A DNA stretch of 64,000 bases, taken from assembly GCA_044892525.1 (NCBI GenBank), contig CM097885.1:24492001-24556000 (forward strand). The letters run 5' to 3'. The stretch is from Schmidtea polychroa. Taxonomy: Eukaryota. This document shows, in pieces, positions 4,034 to 64,000 of this stretch. The notes under the pieces were generated by a model. The model ran no database searches. It saw nothing but the letters and a program-made list of their open reading frames with translations, and was not told where the DNA came from. The position numbers were made by a program, and so were the translations under genes. Each line of letters opens with the position of its first letter. The stretch's first letter is position 1.

Positions 4034-5662
4034 CTGGTATCAGATGCGGAGTTCGAGGCCGGTTACAGAAAACGAACAGGGTTGAAGATTGCATTTACGG
4101 AACAGGGCTTTAGCAGATAGGGTGGACATTACGGAAGAACAAAGGAGAAGTATGAAAATCTCATGACAGAATTCGAGCAGCTGAAGAATAATGTCCTGAA
4201 GTTAGGACGAGAGAAGGTAGTGAAAGAAATTGAAGCAGATCTGAAACGATTAGAAGCGGATTTTAGCAGAATTGGTTTATCTATTCTTCACGTAGAAGAA
4301 AGAAAGTTTTAAAGTGGAATCACTGAAGGTCACAGAAAAATCATTTAGGAGTAAAGACCCTAATGAAAAACCGAAGTTAATAGTGGGATTGAAGCCCTTA
4401 TAACTTCCGATATATAATGGAGGAGTAAATGAATACTTGGCGTGGCGATCAATAGTACAAGCCTGCATTGAAGATACGGACGAGCCTAGCCAAATAAAGT
4501 ACTTATATCTAAGGCAATATTTGAAAGGAGAGGCTCTAAGACTAATATTGAAGCGTTTGAAGCCGCAGTGAAGCGGTTAGACCAGCGATATGGCGGTGCC
4601 GAAAGAAATTATTCAATGATGATGGAGTTCGTGCAGCGCTTTTATCCTATCAGAAACAATGAGTTGAAGGATCTCGATAGGTTTTCCGAATTGCTTCAAA
4701 ACTTAATATTGAGATTGAAAGTCTTGAATAAAAAGCAGAAGTTAAAAGATGGCATGATGTATCAATGCTTTTTAAAAAATTGCGAGAGATAATGATTGTT
4801 CAGTGGGAACGTAACATTGAGACAGGCAGGGAAAGGACGGTTGAAAGCTCGGCACAGTGGATCGAAAGTGAAGCAGAAAACACCGTAGAGCAATCAGTGT
4901 CTTGTTTGGAGAAAGACCAACAAAAAGTAGAAACATAAAACCAACAACAAACTTCGGAAATGCGAATAGGTACACTAACTTTGCGGACAGTGGGCGAAAG
5001 ATAGAAGTTAGTAGTGTGCGTAAAAAAGGGAACCAACCTGTATTAAATGTGAAGGAAGCCATTACTTAAACCAATTTTCAGAGTTCCTAAATCTGAATTT
5101 CAAGGAACGACATGAGTTTATGGCCAAGAAGCAACAGCTCACATGGTTCGAGAATGTGAAAAACCGTGTTTTTGTAAGGACAGGGACTGTACTTGAAAGC
5201 ATCATAATTTTCTCCATGACTCAGAGGACAAAATTGATGAAAATCAAGAGCCGAACAATGAAAACACGTCAATGATGACTCCTCAAGATAGACAGAGTCA
5301 GAAGATGTATTTTATTTTACAAACTATTTCTACAAAGTTAATTCATAAAGGGAGAGGGATCAGAATCAATGCATTACTGGACGGATTGCTGAACTGACTT
5401 CTAGACCCAAAACTCTAAGTTGTGACTGAAATGCGTAGGTACATAACATGCAAAAAGCAAAAAGTATAGTTAAATATAAAAAATACACCAATTAAACAAT
5501 ATTAATTAAAAGAGAAAACAGCAAAAATATAAACACAGAAATTAAATAAAATTATACAAAAGCAAGAAGTTATGCAAAATCGAACTCAAAAATAACCAAA
5601 TAAACATAGAGTTACAAAAAACAGACTCGAATAACTTAAAAGACGGGGAAAACAGTAAAAAA

Positions 5663-6071
5663 TTCCAGAAAAACCCAGAACATTCCATAAAATGGCGATG
5701 ACCATCATAAAAGCCATCTAGAGCAATAAAAGTTAGAAAAATAAATAAATTAGTAATAAAAATAAAAAATCTTAAAAAGAAATTCAGAAAACATCAGTTA
5801 AAATAAAAATTAAATTAAAAGTAATATGGAATGTTCTGGAACCGTTCCAAATCCATCATGGACGTAAAAATAACAAGAAATAATTAAAAAATAAAAATTT
5901 AAAAATAAAAACAAAAATTATGGCACAAAAATTGCCATTAAAAATATCAAAATCGCAAAATAGAAAATTCTGGAATAAAAAGAATTCGAGTTTGTTTTAA
6001 TGCATCAATACATACACGTGTACTTGCACACACAAAAATAGGTATATATACCGACGCATTTTAGTCACAAT
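5663..6071 (+). promoter_or_regulatory. Putative promoter of copy A: heat-shock elements, E-box, TATA box
   Basis: GAAtgTTCtgGAA (5829-5841), GAAaaTTCtgGAA (5963-5975), CACGTG (6015-6020), TATATATA (6043-6050); all conserved in copy B. Confidence 0.6.
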
Positions 6072-7849
6072 TAATCTCTTTATGCCAAATTTTTAATTCT
6101 TCTCAACTTCGGAATAATAGTAAGATTTTTCTTGTATTTGTTATATGTATTGTATTTGTTATATAATTTAAGTTTGATAATCATGCCTATTCTATTTAAT
6201 TTATTCCAATATTAGTTGAATGTAAGAGTGTTCAGAGACACATAGATTCATCTGCGTCTCTGCTCAGTCGTGCATTCAACTACATCTTTTAACTATTGGC
6301 ATTTCACATGCAGACACGCATTATCTATATTATAGTTTATTCTTTTTGTTCGGTCATCGTAGGTCGTCCACTTCAATGGTTCTGCCTTGGAGTTGTGTCG
6401 ATAAAATCCCTCCGCTATGGCTTTAATTATTTATCATCGGTCGACCACGGTAGGTTTCGACCTGACATAACATTAAGGTTTGTCGTAGTGGTCACAGTGG
6501 GGCCATGAAAGCAAACACTCTTCCCGACTTCAAAGCATGACATAATTAAAATCAACATTAAAAATCTCTACAACACAAACATCCTAAGGTTAATAAACAG
6601 AGTAGAACTCAGACCTAAATTAATCACAACTCAACACTCATACCTAATGTGGACGGTTGAATTCATCAAAATTCGGCCTATGCGTTGTCGAACATAGATT
6701 TGGAGATGTCCCAAATAAAAGTTCTAGTAAAATAATGATTTCCTTCAATGATTGATTTAGTAATACGGGCCTTCATGAAAGTGTTAGACATGCGTATCGG
6801 CAGGGTTTGGATGTTAAATTGAATCAACTTCAAACGAACGATAAAAATACTAACCGTAGTAGTATAAAACTCCATAGAACCATGAATTGTATTTATAGTT
6901 TTAGTTACTTTTGAAGAGAAATTCGGATTAATTATAAATGTATAAATCATAAATTTAACTTCTGGAAATTATAAATTACTAATTTATATTAACGTTAAAA
7001 ACTATAAACTATAACCTATGTCAATTATAAAATATAAATCATGAATAGTGCTATATAAATAGTAAATGTATCCAATCCTTAAATACTTGTATATAAATTT
7101 ATAAATTGTAAATAGTCATGTATAAATTATAAATGTATCGGGGTTATAAAATATAAGTTATAAATAATTATATAAAAATTTTTTTGATTATAAAATATAA
7201 AGTATAGATGGTTGCACCTAACTTATGCATGAATCTTGATGCTCGGAAATAGAACCCATAATTAGCTATAGATAAATTCTGTCTACGAAAATAGTAATTC
7301 TAAATAATTATATAAAATTTTTGATTACAAAATATAAAGTATAAATGATTGATTACAAAATATAAAGTATAAATGATTGAATATAAATTATACATATATC
7401 TTGATTTTATAAAAATAAACTATATATAAATTTTGATCATAAAATATAAAGTTAAATGGTTATATATAGAGGTTGAGTATAAAATATAAATAGTTATATA
7501 TATATAACTTGTAAATATAGAACTAAATCATAACTGGCTATATATCAATTTTGATCGAAAACTATGAAGTATAAACAGCTATATATAAATTGAGTATAGA
7601 TCTTAATTAGTAAAATGTGAATTAGAGATAACCATTTGTAAAGTATAGAAACATAATTCATGAACCATACCTAAAGTATAAACTAGAATTCATATTAACT
7701 ACCCAGGTTCCGAACGTAACCTGCAAAATTTGTAAAGTCTAATATCAGTCACCTCCAGAGATATGATCCTATGCCAAGGATATGAAATATAAATTTTTGT
7801 TAAATTATAAATTCTAAATGCATACAAATTAAACAAAGAAATATAATTC

Positions 7850-7994
7850 GTATTAGTATTATCATTATTGTTATTATTATTATTGTCAGTATTATCACTA
7901 TTATTACCCTTATTATTATTATTGTTAGTGTTATTATTATTATTATTATTATCATTATTATTATTATTATAATTATTACTATTATTATTCTTCA

Positions 7995-8051
<57 letters not shown>

Positions 8052-8060
8052 TATTTATTA
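7850..8060. repeat. Degenerate (TTA)n microsatellite inside copy A
   Basis: Visible TTA tract at the same relative position as the tract in copy B. Confidence 0.9.
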
Positions 8061-9748
8061 GTAACTTCCAAAAATCCAAATTTGATTGAATAATCGATTT
8101 AGGATTTCCCCTCACAACTAAATTTAGAACCTACCCTTTTGCCCCAATAAGAATGATCATAATTCCTAAAGTCTATTTTTAGTAACACCCCCCCCCCTCG
8201 GAGAAAATGCTAGGACTATTAATTAAATAAGAACATGGGTGGATACATCTATATAGATATGTGTGTAAACGTAGGTAACTATACGTATATAATAAGTTAA
8301 TTTAACCCAAGCTTATCAGTGACGGATACATCTTAGTTAACTTAGCGGCCCCAGAAATTAAAAGCCATGTAAAACCTACATTGTTGACTTAAACTAATTC
8401 ATCGAGAACACTAGGAATGCATTGAGACAGCCGATACCAACTATTGAACTCCACGGAATCAACTGCATGAATTATCGATAAATGACAAAAGTACATCTTA
8501 CTTAAAATTAAAAGCGTTATCAAAAGGGAATACTAAATTAAATTATTCAGCAAAATTTCTAACATAATTAGATACAAATCAAACTAAAGATACCAACACA
8601 GAGTCATATAAAATTCCTTAAAGGCTTTGAACAATCGACCATTCCGTCCGAGTGAAAGATTTCCACCAAATATATCTAAAATCGAAAAGTTATTATTGAT
8701 AAATAAAGTACTTACAAGTTAATCAAAGGGGATTACACCACTCATGACGAGCACAACCGAGGGATAAGTAAGTAAAATGAGAAGCTAGGCTCGTCAATGA
8801 TACTTATCGCCCCAGTGTACCCGAATTTAGTGGTAAAATATCGGAATACAAAAGAAAAAAAAATTATATATACATATATAGGCAGAAAATTAACTGATTG
8901 CATTTTAAATTACCATCTAGTGGTAAACAAAATTCGGAAAATTCAAGTGGTTAAGTTAAACAAAATGAATTTTCAATAAATTTTTGAGATACTATCAGAT
9001 AAGGTATAGGATTCATTACATTGATATTTAGGGTTAACTAAAGTTTTTATTAAAAGGATAAAATGAAAAAATTTAAATTCGAAATTCTAAGTTATAGTTA
9101 TTCCACTAGTCGTATTACCCCATTTAATTCGGCAACCAAATTACAAATCTAAGAGGTAGATAATTTAGAATAAAAAGTTGGAATGAAGAACTCCGTGACT
9201 GAGGCCCTTGTCCATACGTTTTATCATCGTGTCATTCGATAACTTTCATAAACATCATGTCAAAATCAAAACTTGGACAATACCATGGCACTACCAATGT
9301 TTCCGTCCGCCCGTCGATGTTTTCGTCGGTTGTTCTAGCATTCGTAGCGTCAAACGATGGCAGTGTGCGTTAGTAGGTCGGGAGGAGCGTTAACAAAAAG
9401 CCTGTGTTTAAAGACTCATCTCAGTCTGTTGGTGGGTTACAGGTACTGAAAAATCTTTACCCCCTCATGCTGTTTCCAGCGTAACCCAGAATACAATTTA
9501 TAGCCGACCACTTGATACCCGTTGAGCAATCAACGTTGGTACTGTATCAAGGGTTTCGGCACTAGCAAAAAGTGAGCATGCCTAGCATACTATAATTGTC
9601 TAGTACCCACTAGGGTTCACGGACTGCCGATAGAAGGCCTATGTCCGTTTTTCTTTAGTCCCCATTCCGAAAATCAACATTATGGCAAATTCGAAATGCC
9701 CAGATATGAATACACCCGTAATATTTATTCACAACACAAAATCAAAAC

Positions 9749-10211
9749 TCATAGAGTTATAGTCGGTTCTTTCGGTGCAGACTCTGACGCAGTAGCCTTG
9801 AGCGTCACTTGGGCCTGACAGGCTTGGCGGATTCTCGCCCGCGCCGCTTTACCCGGCCGGATCTTCTTCTTCGAGATCTTCGACGCTGCGCATTCCTTTC
9901 GTTGGTGGAGCAGCTCATTCATAGGGCGGATCCTGGAGATGACCTCTCGATCAAGGTTTTGTTGGTGCGACTGGACCTCCAGCTCTCTCACTCTCAGGCG
10001 GAGGGCCCGCAACTCAACTTGATCTTGGGCGCTCTGGAGTTGCAATTGAGTGATGAGTTTCATTCGCTTCTTCATCTCTGTGGGCGGGAACCAGGTGCTC
10101 TCGAAATTTCGGCAATGGGCCTTAAGTCGCATTAACTTGGCCCGATATTCTTCTACCTGTTGTTGCGCCCTCTCTCTGTCTGCTCTCATTTCTTCCAGGA
10201 GTTTTAACACT
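9749..10211 (-). CDS. Element ORF2, copy B: coiled-coil protein with basic C-terminus, function unknown (probably a spliced exon)
   Basis: Open frame homologous to ORF2 of copies A and C (WFxPxEMKKR, QLQxQxxQDQxExRAL); begins just after TTATTTCAG, with no shared ATG. Confidence 0.75.
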
Positions 10212-10662
10212 GAAATAAGTAAAAATTAGTATCCTTTCGCACTTTCGTCAAGTATCCACGTTATATCGCTAACACCATTGTGGCATAAGCTATAATCTCC
10301 CCGTCGCAGCCCGCATCAGTGCGCACCTAAACCCCAAATCCAGTCCTATGAGTTTCACTAAGATGTTATGAGGTTGGTAATAATAGTCAACATTTAGAGG
10401 AATATCAGTATATACGTATACAATAAGGGAATCCAAACAATTAGCTTAATATTAATAAACAAAACATAAAAGAACAACACTTTGCACATAGGTTAAAAGA
10501 AAATCAAATACAGAATTGCATGACAACCCCACTTTACACTGCGATGATAACGAAGTCGAGACATGCTAATCATTATAGTGAGTAAGATCATTATTATCAA
10601 TGGTATCGGAAAGCGAGTCCACTCGAAGTCGTATCACAAGGTGCGGATATTTGGCCCGGCGA

Positions 10663-11127
10663 TTATCTTGGTTGAATTGGGCGGGTTTTCCGCGGACGCC
10701 CGCGTTTTCTCGCCGGTTCCGCTCCCCGTCGAGAAGTTCTTAGGTACCCCAGCCCCCGGCGAAGAGCTGCGGTCCGCTTTGGGTGGCACTGGGCTCGGGC
10801 GTAGCCGTCGATGTCTTCCAACTCGCCGGCCAGGACTGATGTTTCGAGCCGGTCCAGTCGGTCTACCGCCTCCTTCACATTGTCGAAGGCGTCGCTCAGA
10901 GCCAGTGACGTATAGTTAATATACGGTTCGATCTTCGGGGTCACTGGAACCACATTCTGGTAGGTCCAATCGTGGATTTTGTACCATATCCACCGGGACC
11001 TTAGGCGAGCAACCTCTGCATCCTCCCGTAATCGTACGGCTTCGTCTGTTTCCTCGCGAGCTGGTCCGCGGCTTGAATCGGAGGATGAGGGTCCGACCTG
11101 TGCTTTCCATACCATGGTGTTGGACAT
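10663..11127 (-). CDS. Element ORF1, copy B: orphan protein with C-terminal AT-hook
   Basis: RLRSRWIWYKIHDW motif and RKRGRPRK shared with copies A and C; ATG at 11127 follows the acceptor-like TTTTATCATTGCAG. Confidence 0.78.
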   Translation of the reverse strand: MSNTMVWKAQVGPSSSDSSRGPAREETDEAVRLREDAEVARLRSRWIWYKIHDWTYQNVVPVTPKIEPYINYTSLALSDAFDNVKEAVDRLDRLETSVLAGELEDIDGYARAQCHPKRTAALRRGLGYLRTSRRGAEPARKRGRPRKTRPIQPR

Positions 11128-12676
11128 ATCTGCAATGATAAAAGAGGCATTTAGAACGACTCCTGGCTCTTCCAACTACGGGGTTATTTCAATCCGTCTG
11201 AATATGCCTTCAAAGTTACATTCTAATCTGATGTGCATTTCGCCCAATCGACCATATTCTTTGTATGCGGTTTAGTTTAAATTATGAGCTACTTTTCGTA
11301 ATCGCTTTTATACCCCCTTCTACTAGCTTTAGTCGACTCTACCACCTTGCTTTAGGTTCGCGTACTAGAAATCCGAGTTTTATCATCCTAGTTTTCACTG
11401 GGTCGATAGTCCAAATGGATGACTTAACCTTAACGAAATTTTTACGAAATAACTGTAAAGTCACTCTCGTCAATTTAATAGTCAATACCATAAAAGGGTA
11501 ATTTATGAATTAAATCCAAAAATTAAGTATTAATAAAATAAATCAAACGTCGCTACTACAGATTGAATAATTAATATAAAAAAAATTTGATTTATATTTT
11601 ATAAATTCAATATTAAACTATCTGTTGTTTAAGTTAATTAAACAAAAATATTTTATTTGTTAATTTGATGAGTTAACTTTCACAAGGAAATCCGTTATTT
11701 ATGGAGTTATTAGAATTTGGCTGCTCTAACCCACTATGGGAAGTGGATGTCGCGAAGGGTATGAATTTGTATTCAGCTCTTTGTGAATCCCTGACCATAG
11801 TGGTTGTAAGCGGCTCTTTCCTCAGCTGGTGCTCGATAGTAAGTAGAAGTTTTTATCTGTCGTAGTTGTATAATTTCAGGAATGGGTCTCTAATCCCTCG
11901 GTGTTTTGTATTTCAATCATCCACCGTATTGGAGCTATTACTGTTTAATGGAATCTAAAGCATGGCTATACTCCCAATTCGTGGCCATTTAGGGAAAGAT
12001 TTTTGGAATTTCATGGTTGTTTCATGATTTTATTGATCTATGCTACATGAATTTAAAGTGAAAATTGGGACTCGAGTTTTTCTGAGTTGTCCCCTTCTAG
12101 ACACTCCTTAATATTACCAGTAAGATTCCTTTTGTGATTAGAATAGTTTTGTAAACAAAAATTTTTTGATTTTATTAAATACATTTTCGCTTTTGTTGAT
12201 TCCTATTTAAGTAATTTTGTTTGACGTAAATTAATACTTATCGAGTAATTTTGTCAACTTCTCATGAGAACCTATATAGTTAGAATCACGACTGGTTATT
12301 ATTCCTTACTTTTGGTCCTATTGAGTGGGTATTCCTATTCAGAACTCACTTTCGGGGACCAGGCTCCGTGGCTTACACGCGATCTACTTCTGGGGTAACA
12401 AGGGTTAAATTCGCATGGGTGAGATAATTTTCATCGAAAGATTAGAGTTTCGACTGACATGGTCGATGGCGATTGGCTCGTGTAGGGGAGAGTAGGTGCC
12501 ACCTATCCGGTCAGTTAGGAGTAGTTCGTAGGGGGTAACCCTTGGTTTGCGGGGTTGTTACTAATAATAGAAGCGGTATTATTGGTCTAACTTTGTTATG
12601 AGGGGAAAAAAATCGATACTGTCGGTTTCGAATTTTCCTATTAATAGTAACGTGCTATTGATAATCATGTTACTAA

Positions 12677-12732
<56 letters not shown>

Positions 12733-12748
12733 TTAAGGGTAATAATAA

Positions 12749-12780
<32 letters not shown>

Positions 12781-12965
12781 AATTAATAGTATTAGTAATG
12801 ATAATAATAATGGTAATGATAATAATAATGATAATAACAATAATAATTTTTAATAATAATGATTATAATAATAGAAATAGTAATAATAGTGATACATTAC
12901 CAATAATAATAATGATAATACTAATAATAATAATAATAATAACGATAATCATAATCGTAACATTA
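12677..12965. repeat. Degenerate (TAA)n microsatellite inside copy B
   Basis: Visible TAA tract; source of the poly-I ORFs. Confidence 0.9.
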
Positions 12966-13389
12966 AAGATAATCCAATAGCAATGCTAATAATGGCAATA
13001 ACGATAAGGTTAATCCTGATAAGAAGTGTAAGTTTTATGCAGTGGGTAATAAATGTATAATTCAGGGGGGGGGGGGTGTTCATGAAATTATTAGTTTACC
13101 ATTTTACCGACTAAGTATATATTGAATAGGTTACTTTCAGATATCAGTACAATAGATAATGAAGGTAGGATTCAGGGGGGGGGGGACGTTTATGAATATT
13201 TATAAATTAGTAGTTCCATATTATATAAGCTAAATATATATAAAAATAAGTGAATCTAGGACAATTAGGTAAATATATAACATAGAGGCTAATTACGTAG
13301 ATTTATCATTTTGACATTTTGTAAGTTAATTATATATCAGAATAAATTAGGATTTTTAGGTACTGGACGGTAAGTATATAATTCAGAGG

Positions 13390-13850
13390 ATCGTCTTATG
13401 AGAATTCATAAACTATCATTTTTACATTTTATAAGTAAATATAGATATCAACATAAGGTAGGATATTTATGCATGAAATTTTACAAGCTATCATTTTAAT
13501 ATTTTATAAGATAAATATATACCTCAGAATAAGTTAGGATACTTATGAATGAAAATTTACTATCATTTTAATATTTTATAGGATAAATATATACATCAGG
13601 ATGAGTAGTGCATTTATGAATAAAAATCTACAAACTATCATTTTAATATTTTATAGGATGAAGATACACATCATAATAAGTTAGGGTATTTATGAATGAA
13701 AATTTACAAATTATCATTTTAATATTTTATAGGATAAATATGCGTCAGAATAAGTTAGGATATTTATGAATGAAAATTTACCAACTATCATTTTAATATT
13801 TCATAAGATAAATATCTATACCAGAACCAGTTAGGATATTTATGAATCGG
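13390..13850. repeat. Tandem minisatellite, about 74-bp unit, about 6 copies
   Basis: Recurring TATTTATGAATGAAAATTTAC...CTATCATTTTAATATTTTATAG near 13465, 13540, 13613, 13688, 13761; a related array lies in copy A at about 7140-7560. Confidence 0.8.
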
Positions 13851-14867
13851 ACAATAAATATATAATTCAAAGAACCATTTATGAAACCAGGTAAGTTGTA
13901 CATATTCCAGTTGGGTTATAACCATGAACTGGTGATTCGACGACTTTACGACATTGGTAAGAAAGGTTGCCTTTTAAATTTAATCTGCTGATTTATGCAA
14001 TTTCGTACTGATGATAATGACACACTCTCTATGGAGATAACGAGAAAAGGGTGGTGAGGATAATGATAATAATTCTGGGGGTGATATTACTATTAAGGCA
14101 AAATGGAATTCCAATACCCATAAGGTAAGGATAAAGACTTGTAATTAATATATCATTGAACGTGATTAGATTATCTTTAAAATCGAACATAATTATGAAT
14201 AATATCAATAAAATCTAATAACAATAGTTAATATTTAGCATATTGAATGATAGTTTGTGCAATTAGCCGACTACTTGATAACTTTTGTGATAAATTGAGT
14301 CTGGGATCTTTCCCGTTTAGCTGTTTCTAATGATGTATTTCCTATAGAATATTTGAGTGTGTACTTTAGATGTGTCGTTTACCGGAAGGTCGAATTAATT
14401 AAAATTTTCCTACTTTCCCGATTCAACTGAATACGGTACGATAGGCCTTATTGTAATATGTTTCCCGCGATTACTTGCCCGCATTTTATTTCGTCCGCAT
14501 AGTCCCTGCGACTATGCCAACTACCTGGATGGATTTACCGCCCTACTCCTGGTTAGAAACCATTTGTTCGTGGCGACCTTCCGGTTAAAAAATTGAAATT
14601 TAGTGCATGTGGGGTCGTAGACCCGTATCGTGCATGTGAATTAGTTATTGGAAACAAGGCTGATCAGCGTCGTGGATGTAATCCGCTCACGACGACGCTG
14701 GTCACTCTTGTTGTGAATAATCGGATCATAATAAAAAGGTGACAAAAATTAGAATCATTATAATATATCATAAAAATGAATAATAGTTATACAATAAATA
14801 TACCATCCTTACTTTCAATATGGTTCGAAAATTCGGCAGAAAAATTTTTTGGCATACAAAAATATCT

Positions 14868-15275
14868 GAATTGTGACGAAAATGCGTCGGTATATATACC
14901 TATTTTGTACACGTGTATGTATTGACGCATTAAAACAAACTCGAATTCTTTTTATTCCAGAACTTTCTATTTTGTAATTTTGATATTTTTAATGGCGATT
15001 TTTGCGTCATAATTTTTATTTTTATTTTTAAAATTTTATTTCCTAAATATTTTTTGCTAATTTTTCCTCCATGATGGATTTGGAACGGTTCCAGAAAATT
15101 CCATATTACTTTTAATTCAAGTTTTATTTTTAACTGATATTTTACGAATTTCTTTTTTAAGAAATTTTATTTTTAATACTAATTTATTTATTTTTCTAAA
15201 TTTTATTGTTTAAGGTAGCTTTTATGATGGTCATCGCCATTTTTATGGAATGTTCTGGGTTTTTCTGGAATTTTT
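14868..15275 (-). promoter_or_regulatory. Putative promoter of copy B: heat-shock elements, E-box, TATA box
   Basis: TTCcaGAAaaTTC (15089-15101), TTCcaGAActTTC (14955-14967), CACGTG (14910-14915), TATATATA (14891-14898). Confidence 0.6.
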
Positions 15276-15586
15276 TGCTATTTTTACCATCTTTTAAGTT
15301 ATTCGAGTTTGTTTTTTGTAACTCTGTGTTTATTTGGCTATTTTGAGTTAGATTTTGCATAACTTCTTGTTTTTGTATAATTTTATTTAATTTCTGTGTT
15401 TTAGGTTTTTGTTGTTTTTTCCTTTAATTACTATGGGTTATTTGGTGTAGTTTTAATATTTAACTATACTTTTTGCTTTTTTGCATGCTGTGTACCTACA
15501 CATTTCGGTCACAATTAGAAATTTGGGTCTAGAAGTCAGTTCTAGCCCAACACTGTGTAAAGTGTCCTGATTTTTGTATTATAGAA

Positions 15587-15952
15587 ATGTCTCATTCTGA
15601 CGATTACAGCGATGGTGAAGCCTGCAGGTAAATGATAACGCGGCTCCGGACCCGGTACATCTGGTACCGGATTCATGATTGGAACCGGGGGCTGGACTTG
15701 GATAATTACGGCCCGGTTATCCGGAGTGGCCCAGAGCCCGACGCACTGGCGTGGATGAAGACGGAGCCCACTAACGACTTGCTACGAGAGGCCCGCGATC
15801 GAGCGGCTATCGCAGTGGAAGCTGCCCAAATGCGGCTGAAGAAAATCGAGCTCCAGCTCAGGGCGTAAAAGGAAGGAGTGCCGCTAGAAGAGCTGGAGGA
15901 TGCAGAAGCGCCCCCACGGAAGCGAGGGAGGCCCCGTAAGAGCGCAGCATAA
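15587..15952 (+). pseudogene. Element ORF1, copy A (premature stops)
   Basis: Protein nearly identical to copy C ORF1, with in-frame TAA near 15629 and at 15866; ends RKRGRPRKSAA. Confidence 0.8.
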
Positions 15953-16215
15953 CCCACCAACAATTTCTCTTTATTTATGACTCGAATTGAAATATTTGAC
16001 TTGTTTTAATTGGTGATATTTTTTTTGTTATGTTTGTAGTTCGTGCAATAAATTATTTCTTTGTCAAATTATTGGCTTTATAGATTATGGTGTATTCTGG
16101 TGATTTAAGCGACCCCTTTTTCGACACCCAACTAATAATTTTATGATGAGAATAAGCAAATCACCTTTATGTGCATGGAAGTCAGTCATAGAATTTTATT
16201 ATTGTCTTCATTCAG

Positions 16216-16714
16216 TGTTCAAATTACTCGAAAATTTACGCAAGGACCGCGAGCAGGCCCAACAACAAGCCGAAGACCTCCGAGGCCGAGTCGAGAAACT
16301 CAAAATGAAGTGCCGAGAACTCGAGGGCACTTGGTTCAGTCCGACCGAGTCAAGAAACTCAAAATGAAGTGCCGAGAACTCGAGGGCACTTGGTTCAGTC
16401 CGGCCGAGATGAAGAAACGAACGGCACACATCTTGCAACTCCAGACCCAGGTGGAGCAGGATCAACTGGAAATACGGGCACTGAAGTTACAAGTGCGCAC
16501 GCTCGAGGTCAAGCTGAACGAAAGGTTCATTCAGGACACTCTCCGAGAGCAGATTCGCCCATTACCCGTGGAGCTGGCCAAGATATACCCACCGGCCCAG
16601 GCAAGCAAGCCGAAACGCAAACGGCTAGGGCGGAATACCCGAGAAAAGTTGAAAAGGGCCTGGCTGGCCGAACAGGAAAAGCTAAGAGAGTCCGAGGCCG
16701 CCCCACGATCCTGA
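16216..16714 (+). pseudogene. Element ORF2, copy A (frameshifted by a 59-bp tandem duplication)
   Basis: AGAAACTCAAAATGAAGTGCC...GGTTCAGTCCG occurs at 16294 and 16353; otherwise matches copy C ORF2. Confidence 0.8.
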
Positions 16715-17133
16715 AGGGTGATTGAGAGTGCGACCCCTCCTGGGTAAAACGGATACCGTAACATTGTGATGTCTAAATAAATAATTTTCACCATCTGATG
16801 TGTATGTGGTTGAATCTTATGATTGTTGAGAACAAGGCGGTTGACATAAGAGTGTTTGGGAAAGCAATCTCGATAAGGGACCGAAGTAAATCGGACACAT
16901 GCCTTCTAACGGCGTCCGTGAACCCATAGAGTGCTCGACAATTATAGTGCTCTTAACGCGCTCACTTTTTGCGAGTACTCAACCCCTTGGTACAGTACCA
17001 ACGTTGATTACTCAACGGGTACCAGGCGGAAAATAACGTTGTATTCTGGGTTACGCTGGTAACAGCACTAGATAAGAATTATTCGACCACCTGTAACCCA
17101 CCACAAGCTTTGTGATATCCATTGCAAATCCCA

Positions 17134-18099: not shown

Positions 18100-35462
<17,363 letters not shown>

Positions 35463-36573: not shown

Positions 36574-37367
36574 CTATAAGAATTTGGCGTGTTCATCGAA
36601 TGGATATTGAGTACTTGGTGCTACATTCCATAATTCGGGTGACAAGTATTCATAGGTTTTCCTAATGGCCATGTATGTTGCTTTAGCTAAAAATAGTAAT
36701 AATTAATTACCTTATTTAAATAATATAAATTATTACCAAAATTTTCTAAAGTTGCAGTTTGCCCATTAGCACTAGTATAAACATCTTGAATACCAGCCAT
36801 ACTTAACAGTTTCTTTGTAACTGGAGCTCCGACAATTCCTGTACCTCTTGGGGCTGGAATAAGTCTGACACTTACAGATCCACATTTTCCAGTAACCTTT
36901 GATGGCACGGTGTGAGTGTCACCAATTTTGTTACCCCAATATCCTTTTCTTACGGGAATAACTGAAAGTTTGGCTTGGATAATTGCTCCTCTAATTGCAG
37001 TTGCAACTTCTTTAGCACATTTAACTCCAAGTCCAACGTGACCGTTATTATCTCCAAGAGCAACAACAGCCTTAAATCGAGTTCTCTGGCCAGCACGAGT
37101 TTGTTTTTGAACTGGTTTAATTGAGAGAACTTCGTCTTTTAAATCAGGTAAAAAGTGATCGATGATTTCAGCTTCTTTAATTGGTAAACTGTAAATGTAG
37201 GTGTCTTCCAAACTCTTAACCTTTCCAGCTTTAACCAATTGACCCAATTTAGTGCAAGGTTCCCATTCCTTTGAATCTTTTTCTCCTCGTCCTCGTCCAC
37301 GTCCTCGACCTCGTCCACGTCCCCTTCGACCTCTGCCAAAACTTGTTCTTGCTGGTACTGTTGACAT
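36574..37367 (-). CDS. RPS2: 40S ribosomal protein S2 (uS5), two coding exons 37367-36737 and 36686-36574
   Basis: RG-rich N-terminus, [28 protein letters not shown]; a 50-bp GT-AG intron restores NFAKATY...FDEHAKFL*. Confidence 0.97.
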
Positions 37368-39336: not shown

Positions 39337-41554
39337 TCTAACAATAAGAAAAATAAAATTATAAATATTTTGTATATATTTTGTAAAGAAAGAAGTCAAA
39401 AGTTAACTTAATTATTATATATTTTTTACATTTAAGAATATTTAACTATCAATCAATCTATTACTTTTAAGTTTTTAACCAGTTGACTAAAGAATATTGT
39501 AATGCATGAGTTAATGTACATTACTTAGCATATGAAGTAGCACACAAAATATAATAATAAGTGTACCAGTATAAGATAATTGACAACTTTTCGTCCTACA
39601 CCTAATTCCGAAAGTTAAAAGTTTTATTATAGGAATTGAGAAAGTGACAGAAAAATAATTTTACATACAAACACAGCACACATAATATAAAATACACGCA
39701 AAATTAATATAGCTTTTTTATTCCGAAAGTTAAAAGTAATTAACATATTGTTAACATATAATTATTTTTAAAATTCATGGCGGAAAAAATTTGGATTTTC
39801 AATCGGACAACTCTACTTTGAACTTTTGATAAAGGACGACAAAACATCGTAAAATCTATTTAAAAAATATTTTTGAAATATTATTTCTTTAGATTTTTAG
39901 ATATTTCTCTGGAAACGCTAGCTTTTTGCGAAGGTCAAGAATTGACAATGTATGAATTTTTTCATTTAATTACAAATAATTAAAATATTTTAAAGTATAT
40001 CAGATATTTCTTGTCAAACGACTTTATGTGAAGATAGCATTTCTAATATTCAACAAGGTCCATCAACATTTGCAGAAAAAAATTTGAAAATCGTAAATTT
40101 TAATAACTTGTATAAAAGAATAATAATTTCATAGAATTACATAAAATGACAAAATTCGCCATATAAATGAGCTGGAGAAAGAAGATTACAAAAACTTAAA
40201 AAACTACTCCGCTTCTTATTATATGTCTTAAAAAAATAAATGTGTTTGATGATTTCTTTATTTATTTATAGTTAAAAATATTAATCTAACTTACATTTTA
40301 TCGAAATTATTCCAAATAAATTGATAGTCATAAAAATCCTAAAAAAACTTGAAAATTAATTAAAAATAATTTATTATCAAAATGTTGACTACAAGTAACA
40401 TTTAAGAGCTTGAATAGTGATCTCATAATTTTATAAAATCAAAATTCTTAAACTTAAATAAAAAAACTTTCTTGTAAAATTGAATAAATAAAATGAAGTA
40501 AATAACTTCACATTGTCATAAGTGGTGAGTCATCGACTGATGATCACACCAACATGTATTATAGAGACTTTTAACTTGTGGAATTAAGTGTAATAGCTCG
40601 CAAAATCAAAATCTACAGAGTTTTGTCTCTCATACATTAAAGTGCATGTTGCAATGGCTTGTAACCTATACAAGCTCTGGGAAATAGCTATAATGTTATT
40701 TATTGCATAGAAATCGCTTTACTGATTTTTCCGAGATTATTCTTTGTACACTTATTTTTTGTTTTTTAAATTTGAATTTTGTTTTTCAATTTTTGCTATT
40801 AAGTATTAAAAAGGCGAGGGCCGCCTGCTCTGCCTGTGCGTAACGCCGAGCATGGTAGACACATTTAGAATATTTGGCATGGAGCTTAAAGAAGTCAATA
40901 ATATTGATGCGGCATTGGTTACTAAGAGATTTACAGATCTGATCGGTTAGAGTTTGTGTTATCGATGCTCGAGTTGGACAGGAATTCGAAGTTGGGTACT
41001 TTAATATATTTAAGTATAATATATAAGTATGAATGTTATACTTCGTGAATTTTGTCGAATTTATTTTCTTATATTATTTTGCCAATCTTCTTTTGACGTT
41101 TGAAGGGGATAACGGATGGCCAGATAGATGTTATGGAATTAATTTATTTATATTATAGTTGGGATTCGTTTTTGAATGAAAGTTGGAATTAGAATTTGTA
41201 ATTCAGTTTTCTATTTTTTTATTGAGTTGTTTTTGTCGATATTTGAATTGTTACATTATATGTTTAGTTATAGTATATATTTTAATCGAAAATGAACATT
41301 GTATTGTTAGAATATACGTTTAGTTATAAATACATATTTACTTGAATTAAAAATGAATATAAATTGTTACAGTCATCTCAAGTTGAAATTTTATATGAAT
41401 CACTAAACTTACTTAGTGGCCCATTTGGCCGACGATTAAACTAAATCTAACAACCCAGCATAGGTGGGAATAAGGTGGGAGCTCACGAGGAGTTCCAACA
41501 GCTTACCCGACACCGGCTGAGCTGATTTATTCAGCAGTACATCATATTTTCAAA

Positions 41555-42047
41555 AGTAGTGGGCATAATGGGAATCGTTGGCAACACCACCCACCCAATT
41601 CACTCATTAAAAAAAACAAGTTTTTTTACTCGCTCACCCTTCGGGTGGTTGGGATGGTGTGACCAACGATTCCCATTATGCCCACTTACAAATCTGATAT
41701 TTTAATATTTTAATAATTTTAAAATAAAAATAATTTTAATAATTTTAAAATAAAAATAATTTCAATAATTCAAGGATTTAATAATTTCACATTTCTATAT
41801 TTTAATAATTTCACATTTCTATATTTTAATAATTTCACATGTCTATATTTTAATAATTTTATCATTTTAATATTTTTTAAATATTGATGGGTACTTGAGA
41901 AATAATATTTTAAACAATTATGGGTACTAGTGAATTTACTAGTACCCAAGATTCTCACTAGTACCCAAGGTTAGAGTTCGAATCAAGGTTTGAGATCAAA
42001 TCAAGGTTTGAGTTCGAATCAAGGTTTGAGTTCATACCCAAGATTAT
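41555..42047 (+). repeat. Left TIR of the Polinton
   Basis: Reverse complement of 52689-53094, with extra copies of 24-bp and 18-bp tandem units. Confidence 0.92.
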
Positions 42048-44026
42048 AAACTTGACAAATTTTTTATTATAAAAAATCCAGTAAAAAAAAATTGAAATAA
42101 AAAAATGCCTACTTCAAAAAACTTGGATACCCAAGATTCTCACTCAAACCAAGATTATTTTTGTGATTCATGTAATAGGAGTTTCAAAGCAAAAACAGCA
42201 TTAATGTCACATGAAAGATCAAAAGGTCATTTAAAGAAATTAAATTTATTAGATGATAGCAACTCTAAAATTTGTACCAAGTGTAAAGAAAGATATTTAT
42301 TTTCAGGGTTTGATAAGCATTTTAGAAATTGTATTGTAATAAAAAAAATAAGAGAATCATTTTCATGTCTCAAATGCATAAAGTCTTCAAAAGTAAATTT
42401 GAATTAAAGGAACATGCTAAAGAATGTGAAGATGATGATGATGATGATGAGGAGGTTGAAGGTTGGGATGAATTTAATCATGTTGATGAAGAAATTGGAG
42501 CATCTATAATTTCTTCATATATTAAAAAAAATTTAAGAGAAATAAAAGAATCAATGGAAAGATCTATAGCAAGGTTCAAAGGTACAAGGTTTAATATTAT
42601 AAAATATAAAATAGGAATAAACGCAAAATATTGTCGACAAACTAATCAAGCTTCTCACTCAAACCCAAATTTTCTAAAGTTTATGATTCAAATTGATTAT
42701 AAATATTTATATTCAATGAAGGGATTTAAAAAAAACAATCAAAGAAATTATTCCAGCGTTGCAAGAACAATCTGAACATGAATTAGGAGAATCAGATTTA
42801 TGTTTCCATTCCTTTGAAAATATTCAAATAGACTATTGGAAAGGAAACCCCCAGTTCCCAAATCCTTTATTCCAACACCTTTTATTTTTAAACATGTAAT
42901 AAATGTCAAAAATGGTGATAACAAATGTTTCCTATGGACAATACTATCAGCTTTACATCCTCAAGAACAACATTCTTATCGAGTATCTAAATATCGACAA
43001 TATGAACATGAAATTTTATTCTGGGATGGTTTTGAGCACCCAATGAAAATTGAACACATGTCAAAATTTGAAATATTGAATCAACTTAGAATTAATATTT
43101 ATGAATTAGATGGTGACAGGGTTATACCAATTTATATTTCAGATCAAGATGAAAATTCTTCAACTGTAACTTTTAATACAATAAGTTTATTAATATTAGA
43201 AAATATTGATGGTGATGATTTACTTTCTCATTATGTTTGGATAAAAAATTTTCAAAGCTTTATGAGATCTCGATCATCATTCTGTCATCGAGTACGAGGA
43301 CACACTTGTGAAAGATGTCTTTATTATTCAACTTCTGATGCTGTCAGAATAAAATATGAAAGATTATGTCGATATAATGAACCGGCATTAATTAAAATGC
43401 CAGAGAATCTTGAAATGAAATTTAATAATTATTCGATTTTATTAGAATCTCTTGATACAATTTATGGGGATTTTGAAACAATTAATAAACCACAAAATTT
43501 AGAACAAGAATATCTAAATATCATAGAAAACAATAAATTATTAGATTCTTGGTATGAGTATAGATTGAATCAACTGAATCAATTGAATCAATCGAACCAA
43601 ATGAATCAATTGGAAAAAATGAAAGATTTTCTCGAACTAAACAAAAAATCTTTTACAATAAAATTAACTAAACAAGTTCCATCAGCATATCGTTTATTCA
43701 TTGTGAAAGTAATTAAATTGAAGTATTTAATTTCCAGATTTAAATAGATTTAAATAATATAATTAAAGTAAATAATAAAATTATAAATTAAAATAATAAA
43801 TTAAATATATTTAAGGATGATTGAAGATTAAAATATAAAATATTTATTGAATGCTTGTGTACGAATATTCCCTATTCAAATATTAACTCATGCTTGCGAA
43901 AATATCCTCTAAGCTAAAAACAGTGATTGTTTTAATAATAGAGATTTTTGTGTTGTTTTTAAAAATAAAGTTTTGTTTTGTTTTTAAAATATGGATGTGA
44001 TTAATTTAAGAAACCAAACTTCTAAT

Positions 44027-45785: not shown

Positions 45786-46139
45786 ATTTATTGAATGCTT
45801 GTGTACAAATATACCTTATTCAAATATTAACTCATGCTTGCGAAAATATCCTCTAAGCTAAAAACAGTGATTGTTTTAATAATAGAGATTTTTGTGTTGT
45901 TTTTAAAATATGGATGTGATTAATTTAAGAAACCAAACTTCTAATATTCATCAAAAGTAATTATCCAGAAATAATTGAATCATATGAAACAGCATATCGA
46001 GGAACTTCTCCACGGGATACTCTAGATCATTTTGTTACAAGTATAAATTCCTTGGAATCATTCTTGCATAAAAAATTAAAAACTGATTTTCCAATAAATA
46101 TTTCACCAGAACAATTAATAGAATATATTTTTAATATTA

Positions 46140-47355: not shown

Positions 47356-47399
47356 TTTGTTTTTAAAATTTTGGAAAAATTTTAAAAACTTAAAGTGTA

Positions 47400-48312: not shown

Positions 48313-48369
48313 TTTTTATACCATTTTATGGTACATGTTCCTTTATTAGTAAAGTTCTTTCCAAGTTTT

Positions 48370-48904: not shown

Positions 48905-48919
48905 TTTTAAATAAATAAA

Positions 48920-49682: not shown

Positions 49683-49722
49683 AACCTTGTTTTAAAGCTT
49701 TAAACAAAATTTAGGAAAAATA

Positions 49723-52658: not shown

Positions 52659-52688
52659 TTTTATAATAGAATTTTTAGAATTTTATAA

Positions 52689-61849: not shown

Positions 61850-62232
61850 TGGTGGGTTACTGGTGGTTGAATGTTTAAGTGCTGTTACCAGCGTAACCCA
61901 GAATACAACATTGTTTTCCTCTTGGTACCCGTTGAGCAATCAACGTTGGTACTGTACCAAGGGGTTGAGTGCTCGCAAAAAGTGAGCGCGTTAAGAGCAC
62001 TATAATTGTCGAGCACTCTATGGGTTCACGGACGCCGATAGAAGGCACGTGTCCGATTTATTTCGGTCCCTCATCGAGATTGTTTTCCCAAATGCCTTTC
62101 TGTCGTCCATCTTGTTCTAGACAATCGCAAAGTTTAATCACATACTCATTAGACAACAAGAATCATTTATTTAATCACTACTATATTACAAGGTCTGTTT
62201 TACTCAGGAGGGGTCGCACTCTCGAATATTCC

Positions 62233-62673
62233 TCAGGATCGTGGAATGGCTGCAGGCTCTTTCGATTTTTCTTGCTCGGCCAGCCAGGCCCTTTTCAATT
62301 TGTCTCTTGTATTCCGCCCCAGTCGTTTACGTTTCGGCTTGCTTGCCTGGGCAGGTGGATATATCTTGGCCAGCTTTACCGGAAGTGGGCGAATCTGCTC
62401 ACAGAGAGTGTCCTGGATGAACCTTTCGTTCAGTTTACTCTCGAGCGAGCGCACTTGTAGCTTCAGCGCTCGGATTTCGAGTTGATCTTGCTCCGCCTGG
62501 GTCTGGAGTTGTGAGATGTGTGTTGTCCGTTTCTTCATCTCAGCCGGACTGAACCAAGTACCTTTGAGTTCTTGGCACTTGACCTTGAGCTTCTCGACCC
62601 GACTTCGAAGGTCTTTGGCTTGTTGCTGGGCCTGTTCGCGGTCCTTTCGTAGATTTTCGAGGAATTTGTACAC
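62233..62673 (-). CDS. Element ORF2, copy C
   Basis: Open frame after the acceptor-like CTTCGTTTAG; homologous to copies A and B. Confidence 0.78.
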   Translation of the reverse strand: MYKFLENLRKDREQAQQQAKDLRSRVEKLKVKCQELKGTWFSPAEMKKRTTHISQLQTQAEQDQLEIRALKLQVRSLESKLNERFIQDTLCEQIRPLPVKLAKIYPPAQASKPKRKRLGRNTRDKLKRAWLAEQEKSKEPAAIPRS

Positions 62674-62997
62674 TAAACGAAGATAATAATGAAGTTCCAT
62701 AACTAGCCTTCATATGCGTAAAAGTGATTCGATTAATTGTATAGAATTAATAGATGAAGGATAGGGAGGGTCATCTCGTCCCTGGGGACACCCCATACGC
62801 AATAAGACCTATATGCAATGACTAAAAGATGATCTATTATACGACGAATATGCACGATGAACAATAATATAAAAGTTCTAATAATAAAAATTTCACAAAT
62901 TGTCATAATTGCTACAAAAACAGAAAAATCAAACGCAACACAGTATCACTAATTGTATCACTCAAATAATTTCGTCCGAATTGTCACTACTGATGAG

Positions 62998-63363
62998 TTA
63001 GACCGGGTTCTTGCGGGGCCTTCCTCGTTTTCGTGGAGGGGCATCTGCCTCCTCCAGCTCTTCGGGGGTTACTCCCTCTGCTTCGGCTCTGAGCTGGAGT
63101 TCGAGTCTCCTCAGCCGCATCTGGGCCACTTCTACTTCGACGGCCGCTCGATCGCGGGCTTCTCGCAACTCATTGTTGGTGGGCTCTGTTTTCACCCACG
63201 CCGGGGCATCGGGCTCTGGGCCACTTCGGATGACCGGACCGTAATTATCTAGGTCCAACCCCCGGTTCCAATCGTGGATCCGGTACCAGATGTACCGGGT
63301 TCGGAGTCGCGTGATCATTTGATTGTAGGCTTCATCACCGTTAGAGTCGTCAGAGTGAGACAT
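62998..63363 (-). CDS. Element ORF1, copy C (AT-hook)
   Basis: MSHSDD...RLRTRYIWYRIHDW...RKRGRPRKNPV; differences from copy A are mostly synonymous. Confidence 0.8.
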   Translation of the reverse strand: MSHSDDSNGDEAYNQMITRLRTRYIWYRIHDWNRGLDLDNYGPVIRSGPEPDAPAWVKTEPTNNELREARDRAAVEVEVAQMRLRRLELQLRAEAEGVTPEELEEADAPPRKRGRPRKNPV

Positions 63364-64000
63364 TCTATAATACACAGCCTGATATGAGTCTTTAAGGGAC
63401 TCGGACAACGGAGTTCATAATTAAAACCTTGCATTCAAAGTTAATCATTTTCGATAGTTGTAACTTGAAAAAAAAATTTAATGAAGTTGTATGACTAGAG
63501 AAACGACTGCAATTACAACCTGGATTTCCGCAATTAATTTTTAGTTAAAAAGAAATTCAAAAGTCCTGCGTAAATTTTTAGTAAATCTTACGCTTTAACT
63601 GAATATATCCTAAAATTGATAACTAAACATATCCTAAAATTGATTAGCAATTAACTTTGTTTAATTTAATCATTTAAATTTTCAGAATCTTATTTACCAC
63701 TAGATGGTAATTCAAAATTTTATACATTAATTTTTCCTACTAATTTATGAAATTAGACCATTTTGGTAATTCACCACTAAATTCGGGTGCACTGGGGCGA
63801 TAAGTATTAGTGACGAGCTTAGTTTCTCGTTTACTTACTGCTCCCTCGGTTGTGCTCGTCGTGAGTAGTATAATCTTCTCTGGCTAGCTTGGAAGTAATT
63901 TATTTATTAACAATAAATTTTCAATTTCAGGTACGTTTGGTGGGAATGGCCGATTTTAACTTTTGAGAGATTGTCATACGACTCCTTGCTGGTACTTTTG

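What the first reader, a model, noticed from the sequence alone, without database searches (positions are those of the whole stretch)
10663..11127. ORF1: orphan AT-hook protein with an RLRxRxIWYxIHDW motif under purifying selection
Seen: the aromatic motif, a helical or coiled-coil middle and a terminal RKRGRPRK are retained in all three copies. A-versus-C substitutions are mostly third-position (ATA/ATC, CGG/CGA, ATT/ATC, CAT/CAC, GGC/GGT). The ORFs are GC-rich islands in AT-rich DNA. Known: RGRP is the AT-hook core. Inferred: a nuclear DNA-binding accessory protein, for example a transactivator, anti-silencing factor or integration tether.
Basis: partly seen in the sequence, partly recalled or inferred. 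Interest (0 to 1): 0.75.

Follow-up and report, generated by a model that had tools for sequence, protein, structure and literature searches.

The report
AT-hook gene inside giant retrotransposon LTRs
A small gene kept intact by natural selection sits inside the terminal repeat of a giant virus-like jumping element present in over a thousand copies, and it likely makes a nuclear DNA-binding regulator from the repeat's own predicted promoter, so even lone leftover repeats would be able to supply it.

Summary
The ORF is real and selected, but it is not a host orphan. It lies inside a 6,123-bp solo LTR (9430-15552, TG…CA, 4-bp target duplication) of a Burro-like giant gypsy element with env, MATH, BIR and ankyrin domains. 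LTR-end motifs match 1,208 and 1,797 times in the genome. In copies sampled by a non-coding LTR motif, dN/dS is 0.19-0.21 (shifted frames 1.2-1.6), and the aromatic motif and RKRGRPRK are the most constrained parts. Window copy B is broken by two stops. No homologue or fold was found. A TATA box, initiator-like motif and splice donor near LTR base 650-740, plus conserved acceptors before ORF1 and ORF2, predict a short common leader; ORF2's start codon is probably built by the splice (A+TG). Two cassette types (about 40% identical) ride on 89-97% identical backbones and never mix (0 of 124); a pol-less family lacks the cassette. Best reading: a trans-acting nuclear regulator that binds AT-rich DNA; binding, splicing and expression are unshown. 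This scan noted the same LTR cassette and leader idea earlier, elsewhere in this genome.

The parts
9430..15552 (-). Solo LTR A, 6,123 bp, TG...CA ends, flanked by a 4-bp target-site duplication (9426-9429 and 15553-15556); inserted in opposite orientation into LTR B
14891..14900 (-). TATA-box-like motif (LTR nt 653), found in 30 of 31 LTR starts counting both promoter variants
14813..14882 (-). Predicted short leader exon: initiator-like motif near LTR nt 675 to a splice donor A|GTAAGG after nt 740; a GT[AG]AG donor lies 77-105 nt behind the TATA in 29 of 31 LTR starts
   Evidence: transcription start not measured
13398..13847 (-). AT-rich tandem array (76-nt unit, 6 copies); other LTR subtypes carry arrays of 63-, 75- or 109-118-nt units; candidate AT-hook target
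   Evidence: target role inferred
11130..11131 (-). Splice-acceptor-like yAG 2 nt before the ORF1 ATG; present 0-2 nt before the ATG in 87 of 89 intact copies
10663..11127 (-). ORF1, type A, 154 aa, open; the finding
10966..11007 (-). Aromatic motif RLRSRWIWYKIHDW, pN/pS 0.03 (type A) and 0.13 (type C)
10687..10710 (-). AT-hook/NLS-like RKRGRPRK, pN/pS 0.07 (A) and 0.01 (C)
9749..10209 (-). ORF2 exon (coiled coil plus basic tail); starts yAG|TG in 33 of 33 copies read; start codon predicted to be formed by splicing leader A to TG; dN/dS 0.11-0.17
9724..9729 (-). AATAAA after ORF2, candidate poly(A) signal (AATAAA or ATTAAA in 24 of 39 sampled LTR ends)
9430..9662 (-). Conserved structured LTR end before the primer-binding site; 9 of 50 predicted pairs show changes on both sides
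5391..17103 (+). LTR B (type C cassette), split by LTR A; TATA 6041, donor A|GTAAGA 6120, ORF1-B 15587-15952 with two in-frame stops, ORF2-B from 16216 with an internal duplication
61850..64000 (-). 3' part of LTR C (runs on to 68066 beyond the window); a 3' LTR whose internal accessory ORFs lie in L048-L049; ORF1-C 62998-63363 (121 aa, open), ORF2-C exon 62233-62672

Best explanation
ORF1 is a selected accessory gene inside the LTR of a Burro-like giant gypsy retroelement, and it likely encodes a nuclear AT-hook protein that is predicted to be made from a short spliced leader of the LTR's own promoter and to act in trans on the AT-rich LTR DNA to keep the element transcribed. Shown: position in the LTR, family size, purifying selection, conserved TATA/donor/acceptor sequences, absence from a pol-less family. 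Inferred: transcription starts near LTR nt 675; a leader of about 60 nt is spliced either to the ORF1 acceptor (own ATG) or to the ORF2 acceptor (A+TG makes the ATG), and in full elements to the internal accessory ORFs; the RNA ends at the AATAAA after ORF2, so solo LTRs would be complete two-gene units. [quoted passage not shown]
For: LTR position: direct repeats of 5.3-6.5 kb, 97-100% identical, flank 31-41 kb elements with 4-bp duplications and a tRNA-Pro-like primer site (the tRNA identity is recalled). Polyprotein domains zf-CCHC, MATH, viral fusion glycoprotein, protease, RT, RNase H, integrase, ankyrin, plus TRAF and BIR-RING ORFs match the Burro description in PMC6431247 section 7. Selection: dN/dS 0.21 (7 type-A copies) and 0.19 (15 type-C copies) in LTRs picked by a non-coding motif, shifted frames 1.24-1.58, disjoint-pair binomial p <= 1e-14. 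RGR of the hook is kept in 28 of 28 hooks found, with up to six different Arg codons per site; 23 of 30 aligned proteins match Pfam AT_hook at E <= 5. Promoter and splicing: TATA in 30 and donor in 29 of 31 LTR starts; yAG before the ATG in 87 of 89; yAG|TG before ORF2 in 33 of 33 while an invariant Val codon varies GTG 73 / GTA 11; base before the donor is A in 21 of 22 standard-promoter LTRs and 1 of 7 LTRs with another promoter. Five internal accessory ORFs (RING, TRAF, IAP, 533-aa, 281-aa) also start 0-3 nt after yAG in every copy found (4-5 elements each). Trans action: none of 7 other-promoter LTRs shows ORF1 or ORF2 (5 of them read to their far end), and the one such element examined keeps gag, an AT-rich array and the structured end but lacks env and pol. 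AT-rich stretches of 14-28% GC, mostly tandem arrays, occupy the middle of the 13 LTRs examined.
Against: No spliced RNA was seen: in a run only guessed to be RNA, contigs spanning the ORF1 and ORF2 acceptors are unspliced (records 3 and 6); the predicted donor lay outside the stretch laid and 263 loose-end rows were not shown. The Pfam AT_hook score of copy A (13.2 bits) is below the cut-off of 17.4. There is one hook only, and G-R-P motifs flanked by basic residues can prefer RNA (PMC4615771, abstract). The host genome is itself about 29% GC (window), so an AT-hook alone gives little specificity, and array type does not follow cassette type (118-nt units in type C F1, 112-116-nt units in type A L134/L136). 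The A-before-donor contrast rests on essentially one cassette-less lineage; 1 of 22 standard LTRs has G there yet carries ORF2 (L242), and 2 of 31 starts lack the donor. Only 18 of 28 sampled ORF1 copies are intact. The structure model is poor (pTM 0.22).
Confidence: 0.45

Rival explanations
1. ORF1 works like Rev, Rex or Tat: the basic motif binds the structured RNA at the LTR end and promotes export, elongation or read-through of the 5' poly(A) site, switching between short spliced RNAs and the unspliced genome.
For: An element that makes many spliced RNAs from one leader and also needs an unspliced genome has this problem; a covarying structure lies 1 kb downstream (9 of 50 pairs) and is kept by the cassette-less family; AT-hook-like motifs can bind RNA (PMC4615771 abstract). 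Earlier scan note e1-9240899 proposes this.
Against: The motif is a canonical RGRP core with invariant G and P rather than an arginine run. The RNA structure is about 78% identical between types while ORF1 is about 40% identical. No export signal was tested.
Confidence: 0.25
2. RKRGRPRK is mainly a nuclear localisation signal, and the protein is a host-directed antagonist that binds a chromatin or piRNA-pathway factor through the aromatic helix, without binding nucleic acid itself.
For: The aromatic motif is as constrained as the hook (pN/pS 0.03-0.13). The element carries other host-modulating ORFs (IAP, TRAF, RING). Two deep cassette types on one backbone resemble an arms race. Burro elements are silenced by nuclear PIWI (PMC8532177, passages).
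Against: An NLS does not need the invariant G-R-P, which is kept across both types through synonymous change. No positive selection was seen in any segment (all pN/pS <= 0.6).
Confidence: 0.18
3. ORF1 is an integration tether like LEDGF: it binds integrase and AT-rich chromatin and steers insertion.
For: LEDGF uses NLS plus AT-hooks to tether integrase (PMC11354804, passages). Several copies sit inside other LTRs or gypsy elements (window A in B; E1, F1 and C in one gypsy family).
Against: Flanks of 26 sampled LTR ends are ordinary (19-47% GC in the first 100 nt) and only 2 match the family's LTR within 1.4 kb, none at the junction. Integrase-bearing polyproteins are 93-97% identical between types whose ORF1 is about 40% identical.
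Confidence: 0.08
4. The ORF is a neutral open frame in GC-rich LTR DNA, or a domesticated host gene.
For: GC-rich DNA has few stop codons; 10 of 28 sampled copies are broken; no homologue in any library.
Against: dN/dS about 0.2 in this frame only; motif codons vary synonymously; copies lie in LTRs with target-site duplications and decay after insertion (dN/dS rises to 0.53 among the closest type-A copies).
Confidence: 0.03

Closest known systems
Burro / GYPSM1 giant gypsy-like LTR elements of planarians (PMC6431247 section 7, read whole)
   Same: Over 30 kb, multi-kb LTRs, one giant polyprotein with Gag CCHC knuckles, MATH, env-like fusion protein between gag and protease, PR-RT-RH-IN, ankyrin; BIR accessory ORF.
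   Different: The text read describes no ORF, promoter or splicing inside the LTR; its figure and the original genome paper with supplements could not be seen. Identity to the deposited Burro sequences was not testable.
MMTV sag and rem exon 2, HIV nef (PMC12789967, passages)
   Same: Accessory coding sequence inside an LTR, reached by splicing; one ORF with its own start and one exon without.
   Different: Those lie in U3, upstream of the start site, and are made only from the 3' LTR. Here the ORFs lie 3.7-5.1 kb downstream of the predicted TATA/initiator, i.e. in R or U5; retroviral R is 15-250 nt. No sequence likeness.
Foamy virus Tas, HIV Tat/Rev, HTLV Rex (PMC12789967 passages for Tas and Tat; Rev/Rex basic motifs recalled)
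   Same: Small basic regulators made from spliced RNAs that act in trans on the element's own LTR DNA or RNA.
   Different: No homology or fold match; target not shown.
VANC anti-silencing proteins of Arabidopsis VANDAL transposons (PMC5735166, abstract)
   Same: Transposon-encoded, fast-diverging protein beside non-coding tandem repeats that differ between related elements.
   Different: DNA transposon, plant DNA methylation; no homology; here array type does not track cassette type.
Additional ORFs of plant Retand/Grande elements, TRP28 (PMC11963269, passages)
   Same: Extra ORF of a gypsy element with predicted DNA binding and nuclear location, function unknown.
   Different: Those are antisense and lie between pol and the 3' LTR; ORF1 is sense and inside the LTR; no TRP28 match.
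HMGA-type AT-hook proteins (PMC11354804, passages)
   Same: R-G-R-P core with basic flanks.
   Different: One hook at the C-terminus of a helical protein; score below the Pfam cut-off in copy A.

Membership tests
Burro-like giant gypsy element | Total length over 30 kb with multi-kb LTRs | tested here: met
   E1 36.9 kb, E3 37.8 kb, F1 41 kb; LTRs 4.3-6.8 kb
Burro-like giant gypsy element | PR-RT-RNase H-IN order, TG...CA ends, primer-binding site, target-site duplication | tested here: met
   duplication in 13 of 19 LTRs with both ends held, the other 6 being 5' or 3' LTRs of full elements
Burro-like giant gypsy element | Gag with CCHC knuckles, MATH, env-like domain between gag and protease, ankyrin, BIR | tested here: met
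   (element E3)
Burro-like giant gypsy element | BCL2-like, ubiquitin-like and dUTPase-like motifs | tested here: inconclusive
   No Pfam hit at E <= 0.01 in the ten frames scanned; the paper used HHpred
Burro-like giant gypsy element | Sequence identity to Burro1/GYPSM1 | not testable with these tools
   No repeat library held
AT-hook protein | R-G-R-P core flanked by basic residues, conserved at protein level | tested here: met
   RKRGRPRK in 85 of 98 and 22 of 28 hooks found, the rest close variants; pN/pS 0.01-0.07
AT-hook protein | Pfam PF02178 at gathering score | tested here: inconclusive
   Copy A 13.2 bits vs 17.4; 23 of 30 members match at E <= 5, best E 0.0033
AT-hook protein | [quoted passage not shown] | not testable with these tools
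   Needs a binding assay
U3-encoded retroviral accessory gene (sag, nef) | ORF lies upstream of the transcription start, in U3 | tested here: inconclusive
   Conserved TATA, initiator-like motif and donor lie 3.7 kb upstream of ORF1, which argues for R/U5, but the start was not measured
Rev/Rex/Tat-like RNA regulator | Basic motif binding a structured element RNA | not testable with these tools
   Basic motif and covarying RNA both present; binding unknown
Gag or known host domain | Sequence or profile match | tested here: not met
   No Pfam domain, no solved relative (one hit at E 0.76), 4 weak low-complexity hits among 1.84 billion proteins; the element's Gag lies elsewhere
Protein-coding gene under purifying selection | dN/dS well below 1 in its own frame only | tested here: met
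   0.19-0.21 vs 1.24-1.58 in shifted frames; 0.11-0.29 among diverged protein-selected copies

The most novel reading that the evidence does not exclude
The LTR of this retroelement is itself a spliced two-gene transcription unit lying in a roughly 5-kb R region: every solo LTR can supply an AT-hook regulator and a coiled-coil partner in trans, ORF2's start codon is built by the splice, two deeply diverged cassette alleles are maintained on one backbone by conflict with host silencing, and a pol-less family has dropped the cassette and parasitises it. The thousand-plus solo LTRs would then be an active helper gene family rather than debris.
Probability: 0.3. Interest if true: 0.85.

Novelty: new variant of a known kind. 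Interest (0 to 1): 0.62.

Why it matters
Solo LTRs are normally counted as non-coding remains. Here they carry two selected genes with a predicted promoter, leader, introns and poly(A) signal, in more than a thousand copies. If confirmed, this extends the complex-retrovirus plan (regulatory genes reached by splicing from one leader) to an invertebrate gypsy element, with the genes downstream of the start site instead of in U3. It offers a concrete candidate for how Burro elements stay transcribed against PIWI silencing, testable with 5'-end and long-read RNA data, RNAi and a binding assay.

Tried and rejected
Homologues: none for ORF1 alone (242 candidates), for the ORF1 alignment (997 scored) or for longer forms of ORF2 (998 scored); the profile search of 1.84 billion proteins gave 4 hits at E 8e-6 to 7e-4, three multi-AT-hook proteins and one repetitive protein; protein atlas blank. 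Folds: Foldseek PDB 0 matches, viral best E 1.7, VIA best Z 5.7 (rmsd 3.7, 68 aligned) for ORF1 and 6.8 (rmsd 16-18) for ORF2, generic helices. Complex prediction ORF1 with ORF2: no answer, score 0.00. RNA: no RNA holder listed; the joints 10217-10749 and 10219-10342 in run X1 were rejected as splices because they keep the intron end and lack intron-type ends; an A-rich loose end in X6 resembles templated sequence of other subtypes, so it was not taken as a poly(A) tail; a second read-laying gave no result, so splicing stays open. Rfam: nothing near a gathering score. An ORF1-to-ORF2 splice or a coding mini-exon between them was rejected: no conserved phase-1 donor. The leader's own ATG as a common start was rejected: phases 0, 1 and 2 all occur and 10 of 22 have a stop before the donor. 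Papers: five searches for LTR-internal ORFs, AT-hooks in retrotransposons and splice-built start codons returned 0 papers or nothing relevant; two searches listed no paper on Burro LTR genes. The 2018 genome paper and its supplements are not held and may annotate these ORFs.

Full report
Observation. The frame 10663-11127 (-) encodes 154 aa with RLRSRWIWYKIHDW and a C-terminal RKRGRPRK. Copies B (15587-15952, +) and C (62998-63363, -) keep both motifs; B has two in-frame stops, C is open. All three are 58% GC against 29% for the window, and differences fall mostly on third positions (A vs C 6 of 11 and 6 of 8 in the two motifs; B vs C 43 of 72). Each ORF1 is followed 300-450 nt later by a second frame, ORF2, a coiled coil with a basic tail.

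What the gene sits in. Searches of the window's own genome gave 1,691 and 2,765 first-look candidates for the A and C proteins (150 scored each), many in same-strand pairs 25-46 kb apart. Five such pairs were fetched; each is an element bounded by 5.3-6.5 kb direct repeats, 97-100% identical. The repeats start TGTTGGGC and end CACCA, are flanked by 4-bp duplications and are followed by a primer-binding site (its likeness to tRNA-Pro is recalled). Between them lie a giant polyprotein (zinc knuckles, MATH, viral fusion glycoprotein, protease, RT, RNase H, integrase, ankyrin) and RING, TRAF and BIR-RING accessory ORFs. This is the architecture of planarian Burro elements (PMC6431247, section 7 read whole), whose env-like domain led its authors to suggest they are proviruses. 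Window copy A is a solo LTR, 9430-15552, with its own 4-bp duplication, inserted into LTR B; copy C is the 3' LTR of an element continuing beyond the window. Exact non-coding motifs give 1,208 LTR ends, 1,797 LTR starts and 373 primer sites, with 0 control matches.

Selection. Among copies chosen by protein similarity, dN/dS is 0.22-0.29 (type A, 47 distinct) and 0.11-0.27 (type C, 38 distinct), rising to 0.53 among the closest A copies as expected from decay after insertion. To avoid selecting on the protein I took 39 LTR ends from the first 48 listed of the 1,208 matches to a non-coding 27-mer (left out: the window's three copies, two already held, three second LTRs or near neighbours of a sampled match, and one stretch fetched too short). 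Of these 28 carry ORF1, 34 carry ORF2 and 18 ORF1 copies are intact. Using the 7 A and 15 C copies that lie in one frame, dN/dS is 0.21 and 0.19; shifted frames give 1.24-1.58; random disjoint pairs give pN/pS 0.26-0.41 with p <= 1e-14. ORF2 gives 0.17 and 0.11. By segment, the aromatic 14 codons (pN/pS 0.03, 0.13) and the hook (0.07, 0.01) are the most constrained, the N-terminus least (0.60, 0.27). Pairs are not independent of the tree, but the frame control is clear.

Two cassette types and a family without one. Type A and type C ORF1 are 35-44% identical, ORF2 37-40%. Their elements are 89-97% identical in DNA across nearly all of the internal region (79-83% in the leader), while the LTR between about nt 750 and the last 230 nt does not align between types. 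In 124 ORF1-ORF2 pairs, 57 are A-A, 67 C-C and none mixed, although ORF1 and ORF2 trees disagree within type A. Seven LTRs with a different promoter variant show neither ORF (five were read to their far end); the one element of this kind examined has gag but no env or pol, and keeps an AT-rich array and the structured end. Its promoter motif matches 565 times against 1,538 for the standard one. The cassette is therefore not needed in cis, which fits products acting in trans.

How it is likely expressed. ORF1's ATG follows a yAG by 0-2 nt in 87 of 89 intact copies (100 loci, 11 not intact). ORF2 has no conserved ATG at its start and begins yAG|TG in 33 of 33 copies read without assuming the codon, whereas an invariant internal Val varies GTG 73 / GTA 11. 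No phase-1 donor is conserved in ORF1 or between the ORFs. Five internal accessory ORFs start 0-3 nt after yAG in every copy found, the 341-aa ORF after AAG. In 31 LTR starts (30 taken in list order plus copy A) a TATA motif occurs in 30, followed by an initiator-like motif and, 77-105 nt after the TATA, a GT[AG]AG donor in 29, right where conservation ends. The base before the donor is A in 21 of 22 standard LTRs and 1 of 7 other-promoter LTRs. A leader ending in A spliced to TG makes ATG, which explains the invariant TG. An AATAAA or ATTAAA follows ORF2 in 24 of 39 ends. The predicted unit is promoter, 60-nt leader, alternative acceptors for ORF1 and ORF2, poly(A) site, all inside one LTR. 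That would place the genes in R (or U5); retroviral R is 15-250 nt, and sag, rem exon 2 and nef lie in U3 (PMC12789967, passages). None of this is shown by RNA: contigs of a run only guessed to be RNA cover both ORFs, and those spanning the acceptors are unspliced; the donor was outside the stretch laid.

What the protein does. No homologue, Pfam domain or fold was found. The model is three helices with disordered ends (pTM 0.22). The hook matches Pfam AT_hook in 23 of 30 members, below the cut-off in copy A; the central RGR is what inserts in the AT-rich minor groove (PMC11354804, passages), but related motifs bind RNA (PMC4615771, abstract). The LTR middle is AT-rich (14-28% GC) with subtype-specific tandem arrays, recalling VANC anti-silencing proteins and their tandem targets (PMC5735166, abstract), and Burro elements are held down by nuclear PIWI (PMC8532177, passages); but array type does not follow cassette type. 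I put a DNA-binding regulator of the element's own transcription at 0.45, a Rev/Tat-like RNA regulator at 0.25 (also proposed in note e1-9240899), an NLS-bearing host antagonist at 0.18, an integration tether at 0.08 and neutrality at 0.03. The location and selection are near certain; the spliced-leader model I put at about 0.75.

Novelty. Burro elements and LTR-encoded accessory genes are known kinds. In the papers I could read (PMC6431247 section 7 whole; passages of PMC11410931, PMC8532177, PMC13238120, PMC11963269, PMC12789967, PMC11354804; abstracts of PMC5735166 and PMC4615771; the rest as search listings) no gene inside a Burro LTR is described, and searches found none; the original genome paper, its supplements and the review's figure were not visible and may show these ORFs. 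The scan itself noted this cassette, the leader idea and the structured end in other windows of the same genome. New here are the unbiased selection test, the promoter-donor anatomy with a predicted splice-built start codon, the two non-mixing cassette types and the cassette-less pol-less family. Verdict: new variant of a known kind, interest 0.62.

Noticed in passing
G000:C1:19484048-19505057 (L244, L261, L262, L245): A non-autonomous family of about 21 kb: own promoter variant (565 exact matches, many in same-strand pairs 14-17.5 kb apart), open gag, no env or pol, LTRs without ORF1/ORF2.
   Followed up: partly
L249:5802-6443; L191:1070-1354; L031:5161-5874: A third, more distant ORF2-like protein with the TWF motif (about 214-238 aa) near or in LTR-flanking DNA; weak profile score (13-16 bits). 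Probably another Burro family.
   Followed up: no
window 9430-9662: Multi-stem structured LTR end with GNRA-type loop, conserved in all three LTR types; no Rfam match.
   Followed up: partly
window 57405-61849; L031/L035, L121: Elements E1, F1 and window copy C are all inserted in the same ordinary gypsy family (92-97% identical flanks), and A sits inside B; a sample of 26 other flanks did not show this bias.
   Followed up: partly
L043:5482; L261:4149: The polyprotein frame is conserved for about 90 codons before its first Met in five elements, so its start is unexplained.
   Followed up: partly
L085, L086, L193: Mosaic cassettes within type A: ORF1 and ORF2 trees disagree, showing recombination within, but never between, types.
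   Followed up: partly
window 42096-43747 and 46825-52602: Polinton/adintovirus-like stretch: integrase-like, ATPase-like, capsid-like and phospholipase-like frames and DNA polymerase-like pieces, with inverted repeats at 41541-42075 / 52658-53109 (labels recalled from the sequences, only 42326-43747 was scanned and gave no named family).
   Followed up: no
window 43839-45947, 53571-57277, 57407-61985: Ordinary gypsy elements (gag with zinc knuckles, RT, RNase H, integrase zinc finger), one with 190-bp direct repeats at 43839 and 45783.
   Followed up: no
window 36687-37367 (-) and about 28871-32642 (+): Host genes: ribosomal protein uS5/S2 (Pfam) and exons resembling a PI3-kinase (recalled, not scanned).
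   Followed up: no
window 18900-20800: Extremely AT-rich degenerate repeat array (7-13% GC).
   Followed up: no
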